Assembly (NCBI GenBank): GCA_028712895.1
Contig: JAQTPL010000006.1
Location: 239-64,238 of the forward strand
Direction of reading: 5' to 3'
Length of the DNA: 64,000 nucleotides
DNA from: a bacterium
Lineage (GTDB): Bacteria; CAYTYR01; UBA6262
The position numbers and the translations under genes are program-made. Positions 4,948-58,730 of this stretch are shown here, in pieces; position 1 is the stretch's first letter, and each line of letters starts with the position of its first letter. The notes beneath the pieces are model-generated. The model worked only from the letters and a program-made list of their open reading frames with translations, searched no databases and was not told the DNA's origin.

Positions 4948-6123
4948 TTGCCAAAAACCCCTACTTTAAGCTATATTAATAACATGTTTAACATAATCAT
5001 GGTAGGTATTACCAGTTTACTGACCGACATTTCCACAGAAATGGTCTATCCGCTCCTGGCCATATTCTTAAGTACCACCTTAGGAGCCTCTACCTGGATC
5101 ATCGGCTTGATCGAAGGCATAGCGGAAAGTATCGCCAGCCTCTTAAAAGTGTTCAGCGGCTACCTTTCTGATAAGTCGCAGAAAAGAAAACCGCTGGCTA
5201 TACTGGGATATGGTTCTTCTACATTCGGCAAAATATTTCTCTATATCGCTACAAGCTGGTGGTGGGTCCTTTTATCGCGGGTCATCGACCGGTTCGGCAA
5301 GGGTATCCGCAATGCCCCCCGGGATGCCTTGATCGCTGATTCCAGCGCTAAAGAAAGAAGAGGCCGGGCATTTGGCCTGCACCGGATGATGGATACGATC
5401 GGGGCCGCAACCGGAGTGCTGATCGCCTATTATCTCCTGACTTCCCATGCCGGGTCTATAGATTACCGCAAAATATTCCTGATATCGCTGATCCCGGCAT
5501 TCCTGGGATTATTATTTCTTTTCTTGGTAAAGGAAAAGAAAGCTGCCCCCGCATCTGCTGCTAAAAAATTCTCTTTTAACTGGTCCGCTTTACCTCTGCG
5601 GTTAAAATTATTCCTGGTTGTGACCGTACTCTTTACCCTGGGGAATTCATCTAACCAGTTTTTACTGCTTAGGGCTAAAAACCTCGGCTATACCACAGAA
5701 AACGTGCTTTTACTCTACCTGGTTTATAATATCGTCTATGCCATGGTTTCTTATCCAGCCGGGCGGCTGTCTGATATTATCGGCAGGAAAAAACTGTTAG
5801 TTTGGGGTTATGTTTTTTACGGGGTAGTATATCTCGGGTTCGCTCTCACGAATGATCCGCGGTTACTATGGGGATTGTTCGGTTTATACGGAATCTATAT
5901 CGGCATGACTGAAGGCGTGGAAAAAGCCCTGGTTACAGATATTGCCCCGGAACACCTGCGGGCCACGATGATCGGTTTGCATGCCACACTGGTAGGTATC
6001 GGACTTTTCCCGGCGTCATTCCTGGCCGGCATCCTCTGGAACCAATTCGGGCCGGCAGCCACCTTCTACTTCGGCGGCATTACCGGCCTGTTAGCTGCGG
6101 TAGGCTTGCTGCTTGTGCTTTAG
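4948..6123 (+). CDS. MFS transporter. TTG start at 4948; ATG at 4984 or 4999 are alternatives.
   Basis: About 12 predicted TM segments and MFS-type loop motifs ('DRFGKGIRNAPRDALIAD', 'GRLSDIIGRKK'). Confidence 0.75.
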   Translation: MPKTPTLSYINNMFNIIMVGITSLLTDISTEMVYPLLAIFLSTTLGASTWIIGLIEGIAESIASLLKVFSGYLSDKSQKRKPLAILGYGSSTFGKIFLYIATSWWWVLLSRVIDRFGKGIRNAPRDALIADSSAKERRGRAFGLHRMMDTIGAATGVLIAYYLLTSHAGSIDYRKIFLISLIPAFLGLLFLFLVKEKKAAPASAAKKFSFNWSALPLRLKLFLVVTVLFTLGNSSNQFLLLRAKNLGYTTENVLLLYLVYNIVYAMVSYPAGRLSDIIGRKKLLVWGYVFYGVVYLGFALTNDPRLLWGLFGLYGIYIGMTEGVEKALVTDIAPEHLRATMIGLHATLVGIGLFPASFLAGILWNQFGPAATFYFGGITGLLAAVGLLLVL

Positions 6124-18100: not shown

Positions 18101-18250
18101 GGAGGTAATAACAGTCAGCATGGGCAAGGTGATCTCCGGCATCAAGTCCACCGGTAGCTTAGCCAAAGAGATAAAAGATAAGATTAACAGGACTACATAA
18201 ATGATACTAGTAAAGATTGGACGCTTTACACAATACTCTGTAAGCTTCAT
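15128..18250 (-). CDS. RND efflux permease (AcrB/HAE1-like)
   Basis: The 1040-aa protein has 12 TM segments and two large periplasmic loops; its N-terminus ('LPVDLMPEITLPMLTVITSYPGANAQDIE') resembles AcrB. Confidence 0.9.
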   Translation of the reverse strand: MKLTEYCVKRPIFTSIIYVVLLILSFISLAKLPVDLMPEITLPMLTVITSYPGANAQDIETKVTKTIEDAVRTVPGIDSVESTSKEGASVVLAKFDWGTSLDTASNDIRDRLEFVKSRLPDDADAPRVIKFNTSAIPILFMGANAAESYDRLNKIMETDIADKLRSVPGVGAVYVRGGKIREIQIILDINKMNAYNLSLSQVTDKIQQENVTTPAGSVYEGRKKYSLRVPGEYTTVPELSQTLLAYRQGKPVYVSDIAEVKDDFQEAIKRVHVNQKSGGFIVIQKQSGSNTVTVAKGVRAKLATILQTLPKDVDVKILMDNSDFIVNSINSLKTSIYWGGFLVVLVLLFFLRNVRASFIAALEIPTSLLVAFIFVYFNGWTINVLSLASLAIAIGMVVDNAIVVIDNIYRHLHEGERPQEAAIFGTGEISAAILGSTLTTVVIFLPLIFVGGFLQVYFKQLAAIVTITLMASLFVAYTLSPMLAGKMLSQKTIHLNGNSNSNKLVDRFFRWSEKWFERLDEKYRQILGWALSNRKKVIGGAIAIFVFSLLLFPLVGTEFFPREDQGFLRLRVELPRGTDVNETEIAVSKIEQILREEVKELRMLMVDMGESREAMGSVQGGRKELSSAADFFGKLVPKDQRQRSDLEIIEAVRPKVEKIPGLVKVNFSSQDPMEAAIMGSGKPLTIELYGDDLAKGAELSDQISGMMAKIKGVKDIEVSFEQGNPEVWVRVDRDKATSLGLSVGYIANIVRGTFYGITVSKFRDQDDEYDIFMNLNKKERTSLANLLNLPILLPSGKAIPLGNVATLERQYGPLEILRKDGSRMIRIDAGTYGRSLGEITTDVENLLQKKVMPRGFTYKFGGTIKEQKSSFTDLFFAFILGILLVYLIMAAQFESLRDPFIIMFSVPFAITGVIWGLLVAGLSFNVMTFLGLIMLVGIVVNNAIVLVDYINILRARGIELFEAVQKGGKSRLRPVLMTTITTLFGLVPMAFSRGEGSESWAPMGVALIGGLTVSTLITLIFVPVLYTIFEQKFRRNDSTD

Positions 18251-19143
18251 TGCCCGACCTCTACTTTCGACCCATCACGCAGGTTATCCTGGCCAACGAC
18301 CACGATCTGTTCTCCTACTTTCAAACCAGCGGTGATCTCAATATCGCTTTCTTGTATTAAGCCGGTCCGGACCTGGCGTTTGGCTGCTGCCCGGCCATCA
18401 CTGACATAGACAAAACTATTCTCTTGTTCTTTTATAACTGCTTCAATTGGGACCAGGATACCTTGATAGGCTTTTTCAATAATCCGTCCTTTGGCAAACA
18501 TGCCGGTTTTGAGTTTTCTTTCCTTATTATCTATCCTGATATTCACTTCAGCAGTCCTGGTATAAGGATCGATCTTCGCCTGAACCATGTCTACTAAACC
18601 GGTAAATTCCTGTCCAGGATAGGCATCGACTTTTACTTGAGCCTCATCGTTTTTTTTGATCCGATGAAGGTCTTTTTCGGGAATATTGGCTACTACCTTA
18701 ATAATACTGGTATCAGCAACTGTGCCCAGGGAATCCTTCGGTTCGATTTTAGCCCCCAAATCTACCAGGTATCCGGTAAAAACACCGCTGATCGGAGCAG
18801 TAATCTCTACTTCCTTATAATCCATAGCTGGTTCGTCCCGGTCCAATAGGGCTATGGTTTGACCGGTTTTAACTATGGCTCCTTCATCCACTACTTTCTT
18901 CAGAAGTTTTCCTGAAACTTTGGGGTAAATGTTCGCTTCATTGAGACCGCGTATTTCGCCAACAAAATTTACCAGGGACGCGATATTGCCAACCTGTACG
19001 GTCGCCAGATGCACCGGGATAACAACTTCTTGTACGACCAGGTTTCTCTCGCTTCTTTTCCGCTGGATCAACTGCACCAGGCGATACCCGGCAATGAGCG
19101 CCAGGATAATAACGATGCTAATTATTATTCTTTTTATTTTCAT
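18247..19143 (-). CDS. RND periplasmic adaptor (membrane fusion protein)
   Basis: TM anchor followed by biotinyl/lipoyl-like and beta-barrel MFP domains; overlaps the pump gene by 4 bp. Confidence 0.85.
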   Translation of the reverse strand: MKIKRIIISIVIILALIAGYRLVQLIQRKRSERNLVVQEVVIPVHLATVQVGNIASLVNFVGEIRGLNEANIYPKVSGKLLKKVVDEGAIVKTGQTIALLDRDEPAMDYKEVEITAPISGVFTGYLVDLGAKIEPKDSLGTVADTSIIKVVANIPEKDLHRIKKNDEAQVKVDAYPGQEFTGLVDMVQAKIDPYTRTAEVNIRIDNKERKLKTGMFAKGRIIEKAYQGILVPIEAVIKEQENSFVYVSDGRAAAKRQVRTGLIQESDIEITAGLKVGEQIVVVGQDNLRDGSKVEVGQ

Positions 19144-51966: not shown

Positions 51967-53075
51967 TATTTATCCCTCTTGCTTTGGTTATTATTTTCAT
52001 CAACTCCGGTGTAAATACCCCGAACGCTCAACATGAGTTCATCCGGATTAGTAGCATTATCCAGAGCATCTTCCAGGGAGATCTTCCCTTCTTTGTACAA
52101 ATTTAAAAGCGACAGATCAAATGATTGCATGCCGTAAAAAGCTCCCTGTTGCATAGCGGTATAAATACCGGCATCCTTGCCTTCGGCAATCAATTTTCTG
52201 ACAAAAGGGGTAACTGTCAGGATCTCGATGGCCGGGATCCGGCCTTCCTGATCGACCCGCGGGATCAGACGCTGCGCAATAATACCACGCAGGATCTGGC
52301 TGAGCGTCATTCTGATCTGGGTTTGCTGATGCGGAGAATACATATCAACAATACGGTTGACGGTATGGACAGCATCGATAGTGTGAACCGTGGAAATAAC
52401 CAAGTGCCCGGTTTCTCCCCCCATAATAGCGGCATTGACTGTTTCAAAATCTCTCATTTCCCCGATCACGATGACATCCGGGTCCTGGCGCAAGACATGT
52501 TTCAGCGCCTGGCCGAAAGACTTGGTATCGCTGCCCACTTCCCGCTGGCTGACCGTGCTCATTTTATCATTATGATAAAACTCAACGGGATCCTCGATCG
52601 TAATAATATTAGAGCGGCGGGTGGAATTAATAAAATCGATCATAGTGTTTAGGGTAGTAGTTTTACCGGCACCGGTAATCCCGGCAATCAAAATAAGACC
52701 GCGGTTATGGCTGGTTATTTTACGCATCGTTTCGCTGGGCAGGTTTAATTCTTCAAAGGTTTTAGGCGAGGGAGGAATAACCCGCAAACTTAACGCGATC
52801 CCGCCTTTTTGCCGGTATAAGTTGACCCGAAAACGAGATACTCCCTCTACTTCGTAGCCAAGGTCTAGTTCATCATCTTTCTCGAATTTTTTTTGTTGTT
52901 TCTCATTCATCAGGTTATAGGCCAGCTGTTCGATATTCTCGCTGGTTAAAGGACTGGATTCAGCAGCCATTAGTTTACCATTAAACCGCAGCATAGGAGG
53001 ACTGCCTGCTTTGAAGTGAATATCTGAGATACTGCGTTTGACCATCAGTTGCAAGAGATCGTCAACATTCATCAT
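51966..53075 (-). CDS. pilT: Type IV pilus retraction ATPase PilT
   Basis: Walker A 'GITGAGKTTT', the PilT-specific 'AIRNLIREGK'-like region 'FVRKLIAEGK', and the His box; 369 aa. Confidence 0.9.
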   Translation of the reverse strand: MMNVDDLLQLMVKRSISDIHFKAGSPPMLRFNGKLMAAESSPLTSENIEQLAYNLMNEKQQKKFEKDDELDLGYEVEGVSRFRVNLYRQKGGIALSLRVIPPSPKTFEELNLPSETMRKITSHNRGLILIAGITGAGKTTTLNTMIDFINSTRRSNIITIEDPVEFYHNDKMSTVSQREVGSDTKSFGQALKHVLRQDPDVIVIGEMRDFETVNAAIMGGETGHLVISTVHTIDAVHTVNRIVDMYSPHQQTQIRMTLSQILRGIIAQRLIPRVDQEGRIPAIEILTVTPFVRKLIAEGKDAGIYTAMQQGAFYGMQSFDLSLLNLYKEGKISLEDALDNATNPDELMLSVRGIYTGVDENNNQSKRDK

Positions 53076-53088
53076 AAACCCCTTTTTT

Positions 53089-53320
53089 AGTGTGGTGTGT
53101 CTAATATATCTTTACATTTGCGGGAGCTATTTTTTTCTGATTCAAGGCGCGAGAAACGCCGCGGGCCTTCAGGCACGTAAGCGACGAGCAACACAGAAGC
53201 AGGGAAAAAGAGCCCCGCCCGGAGGGAAGGACGTCTTTGGCCGACTACTGCGTCGTTCCTCCTTGTATTCGGCTTAAATCCATTCCTTCAAATAAAAAGA
53301 TATATTAGACACGCCACACT
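53089..53320. mobile_element. MITE-like element, copy 1 (232 bp, 22-bp terminal inverted repeats AGTGTGGTGTGTCTAATATATC / GATATATTAGACACGCCACACT)
   Basis: The TIRs match at 21 of 22 positions. The core is shared with 55937-56154. It lies 14 bp from the pilT start codon. Confidence 0.6.
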
Positions 53321-53321
53321 G

Positions 53322-53987
53322 CTATCTCTTTTTATCTCCGGAAACAAGATCAACAGCATGACTGGTGCCGATCCGGGTAGCACCGGCTTCCATCAGGATA
53401 TAAGCTTGCTCGGCAGTATCGATCCCACCACTAGCCTTAACACCCATTTCTATGCCCACTACCTGGCGGATCAGCTTAATGTCATCAACTGTCGCCCCGC
53501 TGTTACTAAAACCCGTGGAAGTTTTAATAAAATTAACACCCTGCATGCAGGCAATCTCGCAAGCCTTAATTTTTTCTTCTTTACTAAGCAGACAGGTCTC
53601 CAGTATCACTTTCAGCACATGACCGCTGGTAACGTTGCGTACCATTTTTATTTCTTCATCTATGATCTCAGGTTCATTCGATTTAAGAGCGCCGATATTC
53701 AAAACCATATCGATTTCATCAGCACCGCTCAGTAATGCGTTACGGGCTTCAATGCTCTTGATCGTGGAGGTGCTGGCACCCAGCGGGAAACCGATCACGG
53801 CTGTAACTTTAATACCGCTCCCATGCAATAGTTTTACCGCGAGTGGCACATAACTTGGATTAACACAAACTGTAGCAAAACGGTACTTTATAGCCTCCTG
53901 GCAAGCGCGTTCAATATCAGCACTTGTGGCCTCAGGTTTTAATACAGCATAATCAATAATTTGCGCTAATTTTTGGTCAAAATCCAT
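53322..53987 (-). CDS. deoC: Deoxyribose-phosphate aldolase. Likely start 'MDFDQK...'; the track ORF extends to 53996.
   Basis: Class I aldolase TIM barrel with the Schiff-base lysine region 'VKASGGI' and 'FIKTSTGF'. Confidence 0.88.
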   Translation of the reverse strand: MDFDQKLAQIIDYAVLKPEATSADIERACQEAIKYRFATVCVNPSYVPLAVKLLHGSGIKVTAVIGFPLGASTSTIKSIEARNALLSGADEIDMVLNIGALKSNEPEIIDEEIKMVRNVTSGHVLKVILETCLLSKEEKIKACEIACMQGVNFIKTSTGFSNSGATVDDIKLIRQVVGIEMGVKASGGIDTAEQAYILMEAGATRIGTSHAVDLVSGDKKR

Positions 53988-54002
53988 AGCCAACACCAGT
54001 TA

Positions 54003-54452
54003 TTATTCCTTCATATATTTTTTCTCGATCGCAGTTATCTTATCGATGCGACGCATATGCCGGTCCCGGCCAAAAGGGGTTTCCAGCCAAGCTTTGATCA
54101 TTTGTTCCATATCTGATTCACTGGTTAAACCGCTTAAGCAAAGCACATTAGCCTGGTTATGTTCGCTCGCTAACCTGGCTTGGTCTGCCTGGCAGCAAAG
54201 AGCAGCCCGGATCCTAGGTACCTTATTGGCGGCAATGCACATGCCAATACCTGTTTTACACAGTAATACTCCCCTGGCGGCCTTCCCTTGCGATATGTCC
54301 TCGGCTACCCGTAAAGCGATATCAGGATAATCAACACTATCCTTAGTATTGGTGCCCAGATCTTTAACTTCATGGCCGAGCTGAGTTAAAAAATCCTTAA
54401 TTTTTTCTTTCAGCTCCACGCCGCCATGATCGCTGCCTATGGCGATGATCAT
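54003..54452 (-). CDS. rpiB: Ribose-5-phosphate isomerase B
   Basis: RpiB/LacAB fold ('IAIGSDHGG', 'GIGMCIAANK'). Confidence 0.9.
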   Translation of the reverse strand: MIIAIGSDHGGVELKEKIKDFLTQLGHEVKDLGTNTKDSVDYPDIALRVAEDISQGKAARGVLLCKTGIGMCIAANKVPRIRAALCCQADQARLASEHNQANVLCLSGLTSESDMEQMIKAWLETPFGRDRHMRRIDKITAIEKKYMKE

Positions 54453-54465
54453 TGTTTACCTCGGA

Positions 54466-55221
54466 TTATAGGTCAAAAGTAACTATTTTGCTGAATGACT
54501 CGGGTTCCAGGCTGGCTCCGCCGACTAAGGCCCCATCTATATCCGCCTGTCCCATAAGTTCTTTGCTATTCTCCGGTTTAACGCTGCCGCCATACAAGAT
54601 CCTGATCTCTTCAGCTACAGCCGGAGCATATATTTCTGCTAATTTTTGGCGGATAAACTTGTGCGCTTCCTCAGCCTGCTGCGGAGTGGCTGTTTTGCCG
54701 GTACCGATAGCCCATACTGGCTCATAAGCAACCACTAATTTCCTAGCCTCTTCAGCGCTTAAGCCGCTGGCACCTTCACGGATCTGGCGTTCCAATACTG
54801 TGAAAGTCTCACTGCTTTCCCTTTCAGCCAGTGTTTCCCCGATACAAACAATGGGTAATAGTCCTGACAGGAAAGCTTTTTTCATTTTTTTATTGACCGT
54901 GGCATCAGTCTCGCCAAAGTATTGCCGGCGTTCAGAATGCCCAATGATCACATAGGTACAGCCGGTATCTCTCAGCATCCCCGGGGCAATCTCCCCGGTA
55001 AAAGCGCCTTTGTCTTCCCAATACATATTTTGGGCGCCTAATTTCAGGTTGGAGCCCTTCATGGATTCAGCCGCAATAGCTAAACTGGTAAAGGGCGGAC
55101 AGACTACCACTTCCCGGTCACTCAGCTTCCCTACCCGGCTGGCTAAACCTTCAACCAGGGCTTTAGCCTCCTGGGTATTTTTGTACATTTTCCAATTACC
55201 TGCAAGGATGGGTTTACGCAA
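54466..55221 (-). CDS. tpiA: Triosephosphate isomerase
   Basis: 'LAGNWKM', 'IGHSERR' and 'AYEPVWAIGTG' motifs. Confidence 0.92.
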   Translation of the reverse strand: MRKPILAGNWKMYKNTQEAKALVEGLASRVGKLSDREVVVCPPFTSLAIAAESMKGSNLKLGAQNMYWEDKGAFTGEIAPGMLRDTGCTYVIIGHSERRQYFGETDATVNKKMKKAFLSGLLPIVCIGETLAERESSETFTVLERQIREGASGLSAEEARKLVVAYEPVWAIGTGKTATPQQAEEAHKFIRQKLAEIYAPAVAEEIRILYGGSVKPENSKELMGQADIDGALVGGASLEPESFSKIVTFDL

Positions 55222-55333
55222 AGAAAATACCTCACTTTCAGAATTATATTCCGTAATAGATTATTGGTTTATGATAGCACATCATTTTTTTAATTTCAAG
55301 AGAAAAAAAGAGGATTGTAGGGAAGTTGGGAAC

Positions 55334-55873
55334 CTAACTAAACTGTGTTAGTTTGGGCGGTAATTTTAGGGCTAGGTTGGAGGCTAAAACTATCTTGACC
55401 AGATCGCCGGGCAGAAAAACGGCCATCCCGACCCAACAGGCCTGGGCCAGGGAAAGACGCGCGACAAACATCAGCTGGGCCAGGCCGCAAATATAAATCG
55501 CTATAGTTCCTAAGGCCATAGCCAAGGCCAGCCGCCAAAAGCTTCTTTTTCCTTTAGTCATAATACCAATAATGCAGCTGGCCGCCAGAAAACCCCACAA
55601 ATATCCGCCGGTTGGGCCGAACAATATTCCTAAGCCGGCTGTCCCACCGGCAAACACCGGCAAATTAAGGCAGCCGAGCAAGATATAGATCAACTGACTC
55701 AGCGGACCAAGCAGCGGGCCGAGGATTATACCGGATAAATAAGTAAAAAAAGTTTGCAAGGTAATAGGGACAGGATTGAAAGGCAAAGGGAGGGACACAA
55801 AGCTGCCGCCAGCGGTCAAACTGGCAAAAAGGCTGACTTTAACCATATCGTGGGCTGTTAGGCGCATAGGCAT
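55334..55873 (-). CDS. bioY: Biotin transporter BioY (ECF-type S component)
   Basis: A 6-TM protein with the motif 'VPITLQTFFTYLSGIILGP'. Confidence 0.8.
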   Translation of the reverse strand: MPMRLTAHDMVKVSLFASLTAGGSFVSLPLPFNPVPITLQTFFTYLSGIILGPLLGPLSQLIYILLGCLNLPVFAGGTAGLGILFGPTGGYLWGFLAASCIIGIMTKGKRSFWRLALAMALGTIAIYICGLAQLMFVARLSLAQACWVGMAVFLPGDLVKIVLASNLALKLPPKLTQFS

Positions 55874-55936
55874 ACCATCTACTGTTAACTTACATTAAAA
55901 TCAAGTTAACTTTAAAGATAAAAAAAATAATAATAA

Positions 55937-56154
55937 GTTGGTGCTTCTAATATTTCTTTACATTTGCGGGAGCTATTTTTTCCTGGTTCAAGGCACGAGG
56001 AGTACGGCGTAGTAGCACTACGTAAGCGACGAGTAACACCGAAGCAGGGAAAAAGAGACCCGCCCGGAGGGAAGGATGTTTTTGGCCAACTACTGCGTCG
56101 CTTCTCCCTGCCTACCGGCAGGCAGGCTTGACGTATCTTCTAGACACACCACAC
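55937..56154. mobile_element. MITE-like element, copy 2 (about 218 bp; left TIR degenerate, right TIR TAGACACACCACACT)
   Basis: Shares the core 'CTTTACATTTGCGGGAGCTATTTTTT...CGTAAGCGACGAG.AACAC.GAAGCAGGGAAAAAGAG.CCCGCCCGGAGGGAAGGA.GT.TTTGGCC.ACTACTGCGTCG' with copy 1. It lies 63 bp upstream of bioY. Confidence 0.55.
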
Positions 56155-56260
56155 TAAGCCAAAAACGAGCCCCCATTAGTTAAACCGAATGGGAGCTCAA
56201 AAACTGTTTGCCTCGTTAGAAACTCGATTTCTAACCGGGGTTGCTTAAAAAACTGTTTAG

Positions 56261-56392
56261 CTATCTTCTTTTCTTTTTTTTCTTCTCACCACCGCGAGCC
56301 ATTTTCGCTCTGGAGATGTCACCCTGCTTGTCAATGAAATAAAGATACCCAGCCTGTTTCTTAACGCCGCATTTCATCACTTTCTCTGCCAT
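56261..56392 (-). CDS. Small basic protein (43 aa), not in the ORF track: MAEKVMKCGVKKQAGYLYFIDKQGDISRAKMARGGEKKKKKRR
   Basis: My own translation. A strong Shine-Dalgarno sequence 'GAGGGGGGG' lies 8 nt upstream of the ATG, and the tail is Lys/Arg-rich. Confidence 0.4.
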   Translation of the reverse strand: MAEKVMKCGVKKQAGYLYFIDKQGDISRAKMARGGEKKKKKRR

Positions 56393-56525
56393 TATTCTTC
56401 ACCCCCCCTCATCTTTTGATCATGAAAAAAATGTTCTAGGCTTCTTATACACTATCTATTTGGACTTGTCAAGATAATTCTTACTTTTTTACGACGAGCT
56501 CTCTGACGATGAAAATCCCGAAGTA

Positions 56526-58657: not shown

Positions 58658-58730
58658 CTGCCCGGCCTGGACTCGAACCAGGAGACTTCTGCTCCAGAGG
58701 CAGACGTGTTACCAATTACACCACCGGGCA
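58658..58730 (-). tRNA. tRNA-Gln (anticodon CUG)
   Basis: The reverse complement 'TGCCCGGTGGTGTAATTGGTAACACGTCTGCCTCTGGAGCAGAAGTCTCCTGGTTCGAGTCCAGGCCGGGCAG' has a U1:A72 pair plus G73 (a bacterial Gln identity feature), a GTGT/ACAC D-stem and anticodon loop CTCTGGA. Position 37 is G, which is unusual. Confidence 0.75.

What the first reader, a model, noticed from the sequence alone, without database searches (positions are those of the whole stretch)
53089..56154. Two MITE-like elements with 22-bp terminal inverted repeats flank deoC-rpiB-tpiA-bioY, each abutting a downstream gene start
Copy 1 (53089-53320) has near-perfect TIRs, AGTGTGGTGTGTCTAATATATC and GATATATTAGACACGCCACACT. Copy 2 (55937-56154) shares a core of about 150 bp and the right TIR, but is more degenerate. 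Both are oriented the same way. Each ends just upstream of a minus-strand start codon: 14 bp before pilT and 63 bp before bioY. They may therefore supply regulatory sequence. The conserved core ('GCGGGAGCTATTTTTT...CGTAAGCGACGAG...GGGAAAAAGAG.CCCGCCCGGAGGGAAGG...ACTACTGCGTCG') has internal complementarity and could alternatively be a structured RNA. A direct-repeat pair flanking 2.6 kb also invites recombination.
Basis: seen in the sequence. Interest (0 to 1): 0.6.

Follow-up and report, generated by a model that had tools for sequence, protein, structure and literature searches.

The report
New MITE-like mobile repeat in Elusimicrobia
The two repeats are real copies of a small, non-coding mobile DNA element with inverted-repeat ends that inserted between housekeeping genes in this uncultured Elusimicrobia-like bacterium; it is a new family of a familiar kind, and its only unusual trait is a folded core that appears to be conserved.

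Summary
Copy 1 (53090-53319) has 37-nt inverted arms that are 86% complementary. Copy 2 (about 55936-56154) is a decayed, right-truncated copy in the same orientation, about 90% identical to copy 1 over the shared core.

The MITE reading is supported by three results:
- Close relatives (PilT 95%, 87% and 85% identical) keep the same gene order but have only 15, 1 and 23 bp between deoC and pilT. One of them also lacks the element upstream of bioY.
- Related copies lie in unrelated intergenic sites in two other MAGs (zapB|zapA, rrf2|nrdD-like, tamB|bamA).
- In one MAG, a copy sits inside a diverged copy.

Most ends read TA|GTGT...ACAC|TA. This fits a TA target duplication of the IS630/Tc1-mariner type but does not prove it. 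No transposase partner was found.

There is no Rfam match. I found no evidence that the elements supply promoters. The pilT ribosome-binding site lies outside copy 1, and the bioY operator-like region is conserved in a relative that lacks copy 2.

Internal helices show compensatory changes: 17 pairs against 3.8±1.7 in shuffles. The fold therefore seems conserved, as reported for bcr1 of Bacillus, but this rests on only seven sequences and the strand is unresolved.

Verdict: a new member of a known kind, of modest interest.

The parts
53090..53319 (+). Copy 1 of the element (230 bp). It is flanked by TA (53088-53089) and TG (53320-53321) and fills the deoC-pilT intergenic space.
   Evidence: nhmmer E 5e-76. 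The site is empty in L017, L018 and L019.
53089..53125 (.). Left terminal inverted-repeat arm of copy 1. The conserved blocks are TAGTGT... and ...TTTACATTTG.
   Evidence: (I1: 37 nt, 86% complementary) and the arm alignments.
53284..53320 (.). Right terminal inverted-repeat arm of copy 1.
53120..53218 (+). Internal domain closed by the helix GCGGGAGCUAUUUUUUUCUG / CAGGGAAAAAGAGCCCCGC. It holds a hairpin whose sequence differs between copies.
   Evidence: Folds. Pair counts (helix at columns 34-57 with 111-133, and the variable hairpin at columns 75-81 with 86-93, which has 4 double changes).
53214..53230 (+). Most conserved core block, CCCGCCCGGAGGGAAGG. Its GGGAAGG part pairs with the right-hand block in the consensus fold, and the block resembles a Shine-Dalgarno sequence.
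   Evidence: Helix at columns 141-154 with 267-281 has 5 double changes. Its conservation is partly due to ascertainment, because this block was my search pattern.
55936..56154 (+). Copy 2: a decayed copy with a degenerate left arm and about 45 nt missing before the right arm. It is flanked by TA (55934-55935 and 56155-56156).
   Evidence: E 3e-62. The element is absent from the homologous spacer of L018.
56134..56157 (.). Right arm of copy 2. Its outer 17 nt are a perfect complement of 53087-53103.
   Evidence: (I4).
53070..53075 (-). Tandem ATG start codons of pilT. The ribosome-binding site AAGGGG (53078-53083) lies outside the element.
53322..53324 (-). deoC stop codon (TAG), 2 nt from the end of the element.
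55884..55910 (.). GTTAAC-N15-GTTAAC between copy 2 and the bioY start. It is host sequence, not part of the element.
   Evidence: conserved in L018, which lacks the element.
56160..56199 (-). Terminator-like hairpin and T-run of the upstream 43-aa gene. Copy 2 was inserted 3 nt downstream of it.
   Evidence: the hairpin is conserved in L018 and L019.

Best explanation
These are two copies of a non-autonomous DNA transposon, a MITE of about 230-310 bp. The family occurs sporadically in Elusimicrobia-affiliated MAGs.

Each copy is bounded by roughly 33-nt inverted arms with the pattern TAGTGTnnTGnnTCTnAnATnTnTTTACATTTG and has no coding capacity. I infer that a transposase encoded elsewhere moves it by binding both arms and inserting at TA, most simply an IS630/Tc1-mariner-type DDE enzyme.

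Both window copies are insertions specific to this lineage. Copy 1 went into the 1-23-bp junction of the deoC-pilT operon. Copy 2 went in just after a terminator and upstream of the bioY control region. Copy 2 has since decayed.

The branched core seems to be kept paired by selection. It most likely acts as RNA when the element is transcribed, or derives from the leader of the parent insertion sequence.

Shown: the arms, insertion polymorphism, a nested insertion, dispersal to unrelated sites, and covariation. Inferred: TA duplication, the transposase family, and any role of the fold.
For: 1. Arms. They are 37 nt and 86% complementary. The whole element folds at z = -8.0 on the + strand and -6.7 on the - strand.

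2. Empty sites. L017 (PilT 95% identical), L018 (87%) and L019 (85%) keep the order tpiA-rpiB-deoC-pilT, with 15, 1 and 23 bp between deoC and pilT. L018 has a 152-bp bioY upstream spacer without the element.

3. Other copies. They lie at zapB|zapA and rrf2|nrdD-like in Elusimicrobia UBA6262, and at tamB|bamA in MAG STB_132 and in a metagenome contig.

4. Nested insertion. L008 5016-5281 lies inside a diverged copy at 4965-5502, whose own arms still match each other.

5. TA flanks. TA is present at 9 of 11 assessable ends. The two exceptions differ by one substitution and one 1-nt deletion.

6. Assembly breaks. Assemblies of the same species break inside copy 1.

7. Decay. Deletions have occurred between short direct repeats, in copy 1 and in L016 compared with L014.

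8. Known behaviour. TA duplication is characteristic of IS630/Tc1-mariner (PMC2170065).
Against: - No transposase and no full-length element with these arms was found. There was none in the window and none next to the other copies.
- TA is palindromic, so a TA duplication cannot be told apart from TA being the end of the inverted repeat.
- Copy number looks low: 2 copies in about 79 kb of this species and 8 copies at 6 sites in all collections scanned. My exact-pattern scans would, however, miss diverged copies.
- The middle of the arms differs between three copies from one genome while staying complementary, and the internal helices covary. A plain selfish MITE does not need either feature.
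Confidence: 0.8

Rival explanations
1. The element is mainly a structured non-coding RNA gene. The long 'inverted repeat' is its closing stem, and it spreads or persists because the RNA has a cellular function. The DNA-transposon features are secondary.
For: - Internal helices show 17 pairs with changes on both sides, against 3.8±1.7 in shuffles and 0-5 in slid controls.
- Two hairpins are replaced by unrelated sequences at the same positions.
- The middle of the arms covaries.
- G·U cells outnumber A·C cells 35 to 13 on the + strand.
Against: - There is no Rfam match.
- The core without its arms is not unusually stable (z -0.2 to -2.0).
- The G·U excess is biased, because the structure was predicted on the + strand. 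Mismatches in the arms split 6 to 4, so they give no strand signal.
- Whole hairpins are deleted in copy 1 and in L016.
- Presence varies between 95%-identical relatives and the element sits at unrelated genes.
- Only 7 sequences were available, and one diverged copy supplies most of the double changes.
Confidence: 0.12
2. The element is mobilised through a folded single strand of DNA, recognised by shape rather than sequence, as with HUH-transposase or integron-attC-like substrates. It would not be moved by a DDE transposase that binds the arms.
For: - Pairing is kept while the arm sequences diverge within one genome.
- The fold is equally good on both strands: alifold gives -134.7 against -136.4 kcal/mol.
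Against: - Long, perfect terminal inverted repeats with TA flanks are not features of IS200/IS605, IS91 or attC sites (established knowledge).
- No HUH or integrase gene lies nearby.
- Conserved terminal and sub-terminal arm blocks fit a two-part DNA-binding domain.
Confidence: 0.05
3. The two copies arose by local segmental duplication or are the ends of a composite transposon that brought in deoC-rpiB-tpiA-bioY.
For: The outermost ends (53087-53103 and 56141-56157) are a perfect 17-nt inverted repeat.
Against: - The gene block and its neighbours are in the same order in relatives that lack both elements, so the block is native.
- Copies occur in other genomes at unrelated sites.
- The two copies are only about 90% identical.
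Confidence: 0.02

Closest known systems
MITEs derived from IS630/Tc1-mariner insertion sequences (ISY100 and IS630 type)
   Same: They are short and non-coding, have inverted arms of about 24-35 bp, and are flanked by TA at both ends. Insertion into TA with duplication is the hallmark of the family (PMC2170065).
   Different: No cognate transposase or full-length insertion sequence was found. The arm sequence matches nothing in the plasmid or phage collections. The TA duplication cannot be separated from the repeat itself. The arms here have a variable but compensated middle.
bcr1 repeats of the Bacillus cereus group
   Same: They are small mobile repeats whose positions are not conserved between close strains. 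Compensatory base changes maintain a branched RNA-level structure (PMC3184786).
   Different: bcr1 is about 155 bp, is flanked by 5-bp direct repeats, lacks long terminal inverted repeats of this kind, occurs in Firmicutes, and has no sequence similarity to this element.
Correia / NEMIS elements of Neisseria
   Same: They are bounded by inverted repeats, lie next to or within transcription units and are co-transcribed with host genes. Their paired ends form a long RNA duplex (PMC2229807, PMC3184786). That they have TA flanks is from my own knowledge.
   Different: Correia elements are 100-155 bp and number in the hundreds per genome. They carry documented promoter and IHF sites and are cut by RNase III. 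None of that is shown here, and this element has a larger branched core.

Membership tests
MITE (non-autonomous inverted-repeat transposon) | Terminal inverted repeats | tested here: met
   Copy 1 has 37-nt arms that are 86% complementary. Arms are paired in all full copies.
MITE (non-autonomous inverted-repeat transposon) | Small size and no coding capacity | tested here: met
   Copies are 220-310 bp. The only ORFs are short and not conserved, and the start codon of the 11-codon frame varies (ATG, ACG, CTG, TTG). The 83-aa ORF has no homologue in 5.8 billion proteins.
MITE (non-autonomous inverted-repeat transposon) | Insertion polymorphism between related genomes | tested here: met
   Both window sites are empty in relatives with PilT 85-95% identical. 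A nested copy is present in L008.
MITE (non-autonomous inverted-repeat transposon) | Multiple dispersed copies in a genome | tested here: inconclusive
   There are 2 copies in about 79 kb of this species and 3 copies in 16 kb of UBA6262. Whole genomes could not be scanned with a profile. Contigs break at copy 1.
MITE (non-autonomous inverted-repeat transposon) | Target-site duplication | tested here: inconclusive
   TA is present at 9 of 11 ends, but TA is palindromic and could be part of the repeat. No longer direct repeat flanks any copy.
MITE (non-autonomous inverted-repeat transposon) | A cognate autonomous element with the same arms | tested here: not met
   None was found in the window, near the other copies, or in viral, plasmid or phage collections.
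IS630/Tc1-mariner derivative | Insertion at TA with TA duplication | tested here: inconclusive
   The flanks are consistent with it. The empty site in the closest relative reads TG at the aligned position.
IS630/Tc1-mariner derivative | [quoted passage not shown] | not testable with these tools
   No transposase was identified.
Any Rfam RNA family (riboswitch, sRNA, 6S and others) | A covariance-model match | tested here: not met
   There were no hits in the element at gathering thresholds or at E<=10.
Structured functional RNA (new family) | Covariation that supports helices beyond the terminal arms | tested here: inconclusive
   There are 17 double-change pairs against 3.8±1.7 in shuffles. 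Only 7 sequences were available, the structure was derived from them, and the core's folding z-score is weak.
Structured functional RNA (new family) | A discrete transcript from a defined strand | not testable with these tools
   No expression data are available, and the strand signal is ambiguous.

The most novel reading that the evidence does not exclude
The element is a mobile structured RNA module. Its whole three-way fold (a 33-bp closing stem plus two internal domains) would be kept by selection because the transcript does something. It might insulate or process the host operon mRNA into which it inserts, allowing it to sit inside tight operons such as deoC-pilT, zapB-zapA and tamB-bamA without harm. 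Or it might take part in its own mobilisation. That would make it a new RNA class spread by transposition in Elusimicrobiota.
Probability: 0.15. Interest if true: 0.6.

Novelty: new member of a known kind. Interest (0 to 1): 0.3.

Why it matters
The result gives a first documented mobile repeat family for a little-studied, uncultured lineage (Elusimicrobia-like MAGs). I found no paper describing MITEs in this phylum.

The element is a practical marker for recent genome change, and it explains contig breaks in these MAGs.

It repeatedly sits inside very tight operon junctions, and its internal pairings appear conserved. This makes it a small but tractable case for asking how such insertions are tolerated, and whether MITE folds are functional RNA. 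It does not change how deoC, pilT or bioY should be annotated.

Tried and rejected
- **Rfam.** I searched at gathering thresholds over the window and at E<=10 over 52800-56500. Nothing matched in the elements.
- **Strand from arm mismatches.** An early impression that all mismatches were G·U on the + strand did not survive a full count: 6 were compatible with the + strand and 4 with the - strand. The 35:13 G·U excess over all helices is biased by predicting the fold on the + strand.
- **Promoters and terminators.** The scan found no promoter-like site inside the elements. It listed one weak terminator-like site inside copy 1 on the - strand, and neither class of site was enriched over shuffles.
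- **bioY leader or riboswitch.** Rejected. The other copies sit at unrelated genes, and the bioY operator-like region is conserved without the element.
- **Composite transposon or segmental duplication.** Rejected by synteny in relatives that lack the element.
- **More copies.**
  - A genome-collection scan with a 19-base core pattern gave 3 true loci among 12.
  - A metagenome scan gave 1.
  - Two viral-contig scans gave only chance matches.
  - BLAST against plasmids and phages gave nothing meaningful.
  - A protein search with the spurious 83-aa ORF, meant to catch mis-called copies, found nothing.
  - nhmmer on 11 further loci from relatives and from the same species found no new copies.
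- **Transposase partner.** Ten candidate window ORFs and ten neighbours of the other copies were scanned against Pfam. None was a transposase.
- **Failed look-ups.** Two look-ups of window-edge proteins failed, probably because of my choice of start codon.
Full report

Yes. Copy 1 has inverted arms at 53089-53125 and 53284-53320.

Copy 2 shares two blocks with copy 1, of 61 and 91 nt, each 90% identical and in the same orientation. Its right end (56141-56157) is a perfect 17-nt complement of copy 1's left end. Its left arm is degenerate, and about 45 nt of the right-hand part are missing.

The similarity is far beyond chance. The 17-mer core occurs twice against 0.08 expected, and nhmmer gives E-values of 5e-76 and 3e-62. 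No third copy lies in the window.

The stated distances to pilT and bioY are right to within 1-2 nt. In addition, copy 1 ends 2 nt from the deoC stop codon, so it fills the whole intergenic space.

**2. Where does the window come from, and are there other copies?**

Exact-protein look-ups place the window in two MAG assemblies, GCA_028714575.1 and GCA_028719005.1. The nearest named PilT homologues are from Elusimicrobia and Endomicrobia.

A scan of one genome per species with a 19-base core pattern returned 12 loci, of which 3 are true relatives. Two are in Elusimicrobia bacterium UBA6262 (L008, L009) and one is in MAG STB_132 (L014). A metagenome scan added L016, which is the same locus as L014 from another sample.

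The family is therefore rare in public data. My exact-match patterns would, however, miss diverged members.

The copies sit between unrelated housekeeping genes:
- zapB|zapA
- rrf2|nrdD-like
- tamB|bamA
- deoC|pilT
- a small ORF|bioY

This rules out a leader or riboswitch tied to one regulon.

**3. Evidence for mobility**

- **Empty sites.** Three relatives, with PilT 95%, 87% and 85% identical, keep the order tpiA-rpiB-deoC-pilT-gcv. They have only 15, 1 and 23 bp between deoC and pilT. The 87% relative also has the 43-aa gene, its terminator hairpin and the bioY upstream region in 152 bp without copy 2. nhmmer finds no copy anywhere in those loci.
- **Nested insertion.** In L008, a full copy (5016-5281) interrupts a diverged copy (4965-5502). 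The diverged copy's own arms, TAGTGTCCTGTCTCCTAAATC..., still match each other.
- **Assembly breaks.** In GCA_028719005.1 one contig ends 19 nt into copy 1 and another starts inside it. A Logan contig breaks there too. Assemblers behave this way at repeats.
- **Decay.** Copy 1 lacks a hairpin through deletion between GCGTCG repeats. L016 lacks 33 nt between GCGAAGAGC repeats that L014 keeps.

**4. Ends and target**

Nine of 11 assessable ends read TA|GTGT...ACAC|TA. The exceptions are copy 1's right side (TG) and the left side of the nested copy, where one A is missing.

Insertion into TA with duplication is the signature of IS630/Tc1-mariner elements (PMC2170065). That makes such a transposase the simplest inferred mobiliser.

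TA is its own reverse complement, so it could equally be the outermost pair of the repeat. No transposase or full-length parent was found in the window, beside the other copies, or in the viral, plasmid and phage collections. The family assignment therefore remains an inference.

**5. The fold**

The whole of copy 1 folds very stably, at -98 kcal/mol with z = -8.0 on the + strand and z = -6.7 on the - strand. This comes from the arms. The core alone has z between -0.2 and -2.0.

Seven copies give a consistent consensus fold with three parts: the arm stem, a domain closed by GCGGG..UUUUUU/AAAAA..CCCGC, and a second domain in which GGGAAGG pairs with the right-hand CCUUC block.

Pair counts:

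| Structure counted | Pairs changed on both sides | Shuffles | Slid controls |
|---|---|---|---|
| Whole structure | 26 | 8.9±2.2 | 1-7 |
| Arms excluded | 17 | 3.8±1.7 | 0-5 |

Two hairpins are replaced by unrelated sequences at the same positions. So the pairing seems to be maintained, as reported for the bcr1 repeats of Bacillus (PMC3184786).

Several caveats apply:
- There are only seven sequences, two of them nearly identical.
- One diverged copy supplies most of the double changes.
- The structure was derived from the same alignment.
- The strand is unresolved.

A possible source of the fold is the mRNA leader of the parent insertion sequence. The conserved GGAGGGAAGG followed by ATG, CTG, TTG or ACG looks like a relic translation start. 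This is speculation.

**6. Effect on the host genes**

No regulatory role is supported.
- The pilT ribosome-binding site lies outside copy 1 and is present in relatives with empty sites.
- The GTTAAC-N15-GTTAAC region in front of bioY lies between copy 2 and the gene, and it is conserved without the element.
- No promoter-like site falls inside either copy. One weak terminator-like site is listed inside copy 1 on the - strand, and neither class of site is enriched over shuffles.

In four of five sites the element is antisense to the host genes. That is too few to call a bias.

One copy is different. In L008, the right arm of the outer copy contains AGGAG 11 nt before the zapA ATG, and the terminal TA overlaps that ATG. 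So an arm can end up supplying a ribosome-binding site.

**7. Verdict**

This is a new family of a known kind, a MITE-like mobile repeat with a conserved fold. Interest is modest. The open points are the missing transposase and whether the fold is functional RNA.

Noticed in passing
L008:4965-5502: A diverged copy is interrupted by a full copy at 5016-5281. The outer copy sits exactly between the TAG stop codon of a ZapB-like ORF and the ATG of zapA. Its right arm contains AGGAG 11 nt upstream of that ATG, and the terminal TA overlaps the start codon.
   Followed up: partly
window:55884-55910: GTTAAC-N15-GTTAAC lies just upstream of bioY and is conserved in relative L018. From memory it looks like a biotin-repressor (BirA-type) operator. 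I did not test this.
   Followed up: no
window:56261-56392 (- strand): A conserved 43-aa lysine- and arginine-rich ORF (MAEKVMKCGVKKQAGYLYFIDKQGDISRAKMARGGEKKKKKRR) is followed by a terminator-like hairpin at 56160-56199. It is called as a gene in L018 and L019 as well and has no Pfam hit on record.
   Followed up: no
L019:321-1335: The relative with PilT 85% identical lacks bioY altogether. There the 43-aa gene is followed directly by tpiA.
   Followed up: no
L149 end (18243-18261), L002:1-190, L003:1-140: Contigs of GCA_028719005.1 and of a Logan assembly end or begin inside copy 1. The repeat therefore fragments assemblies of this species.
   Followed up: yes
L016:340-365 versus L014:1620-1680: The same tamB|bamA insertion in two samples differs by a 33-nt deletion between 9-nt direct repeats (GCGAAGAGC). 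The deletion removes the variable hairpin.
   Followed up: partly
window:58102-58175 and 58658-58730 (- strand): Two tRNA genes were found by Rfam. They are unrelated to the elements.
   Followed up: no
window:44693-46528 (- strand): A 611-aa ORF lies here. Relatives have a DnaA/IstB-like ATPase gene at the corresponding position, but no gene is listed there for L001 or L143 in the look-up tables. This is probably a gap in the gene-call record rather than biology.
   Followed up: no
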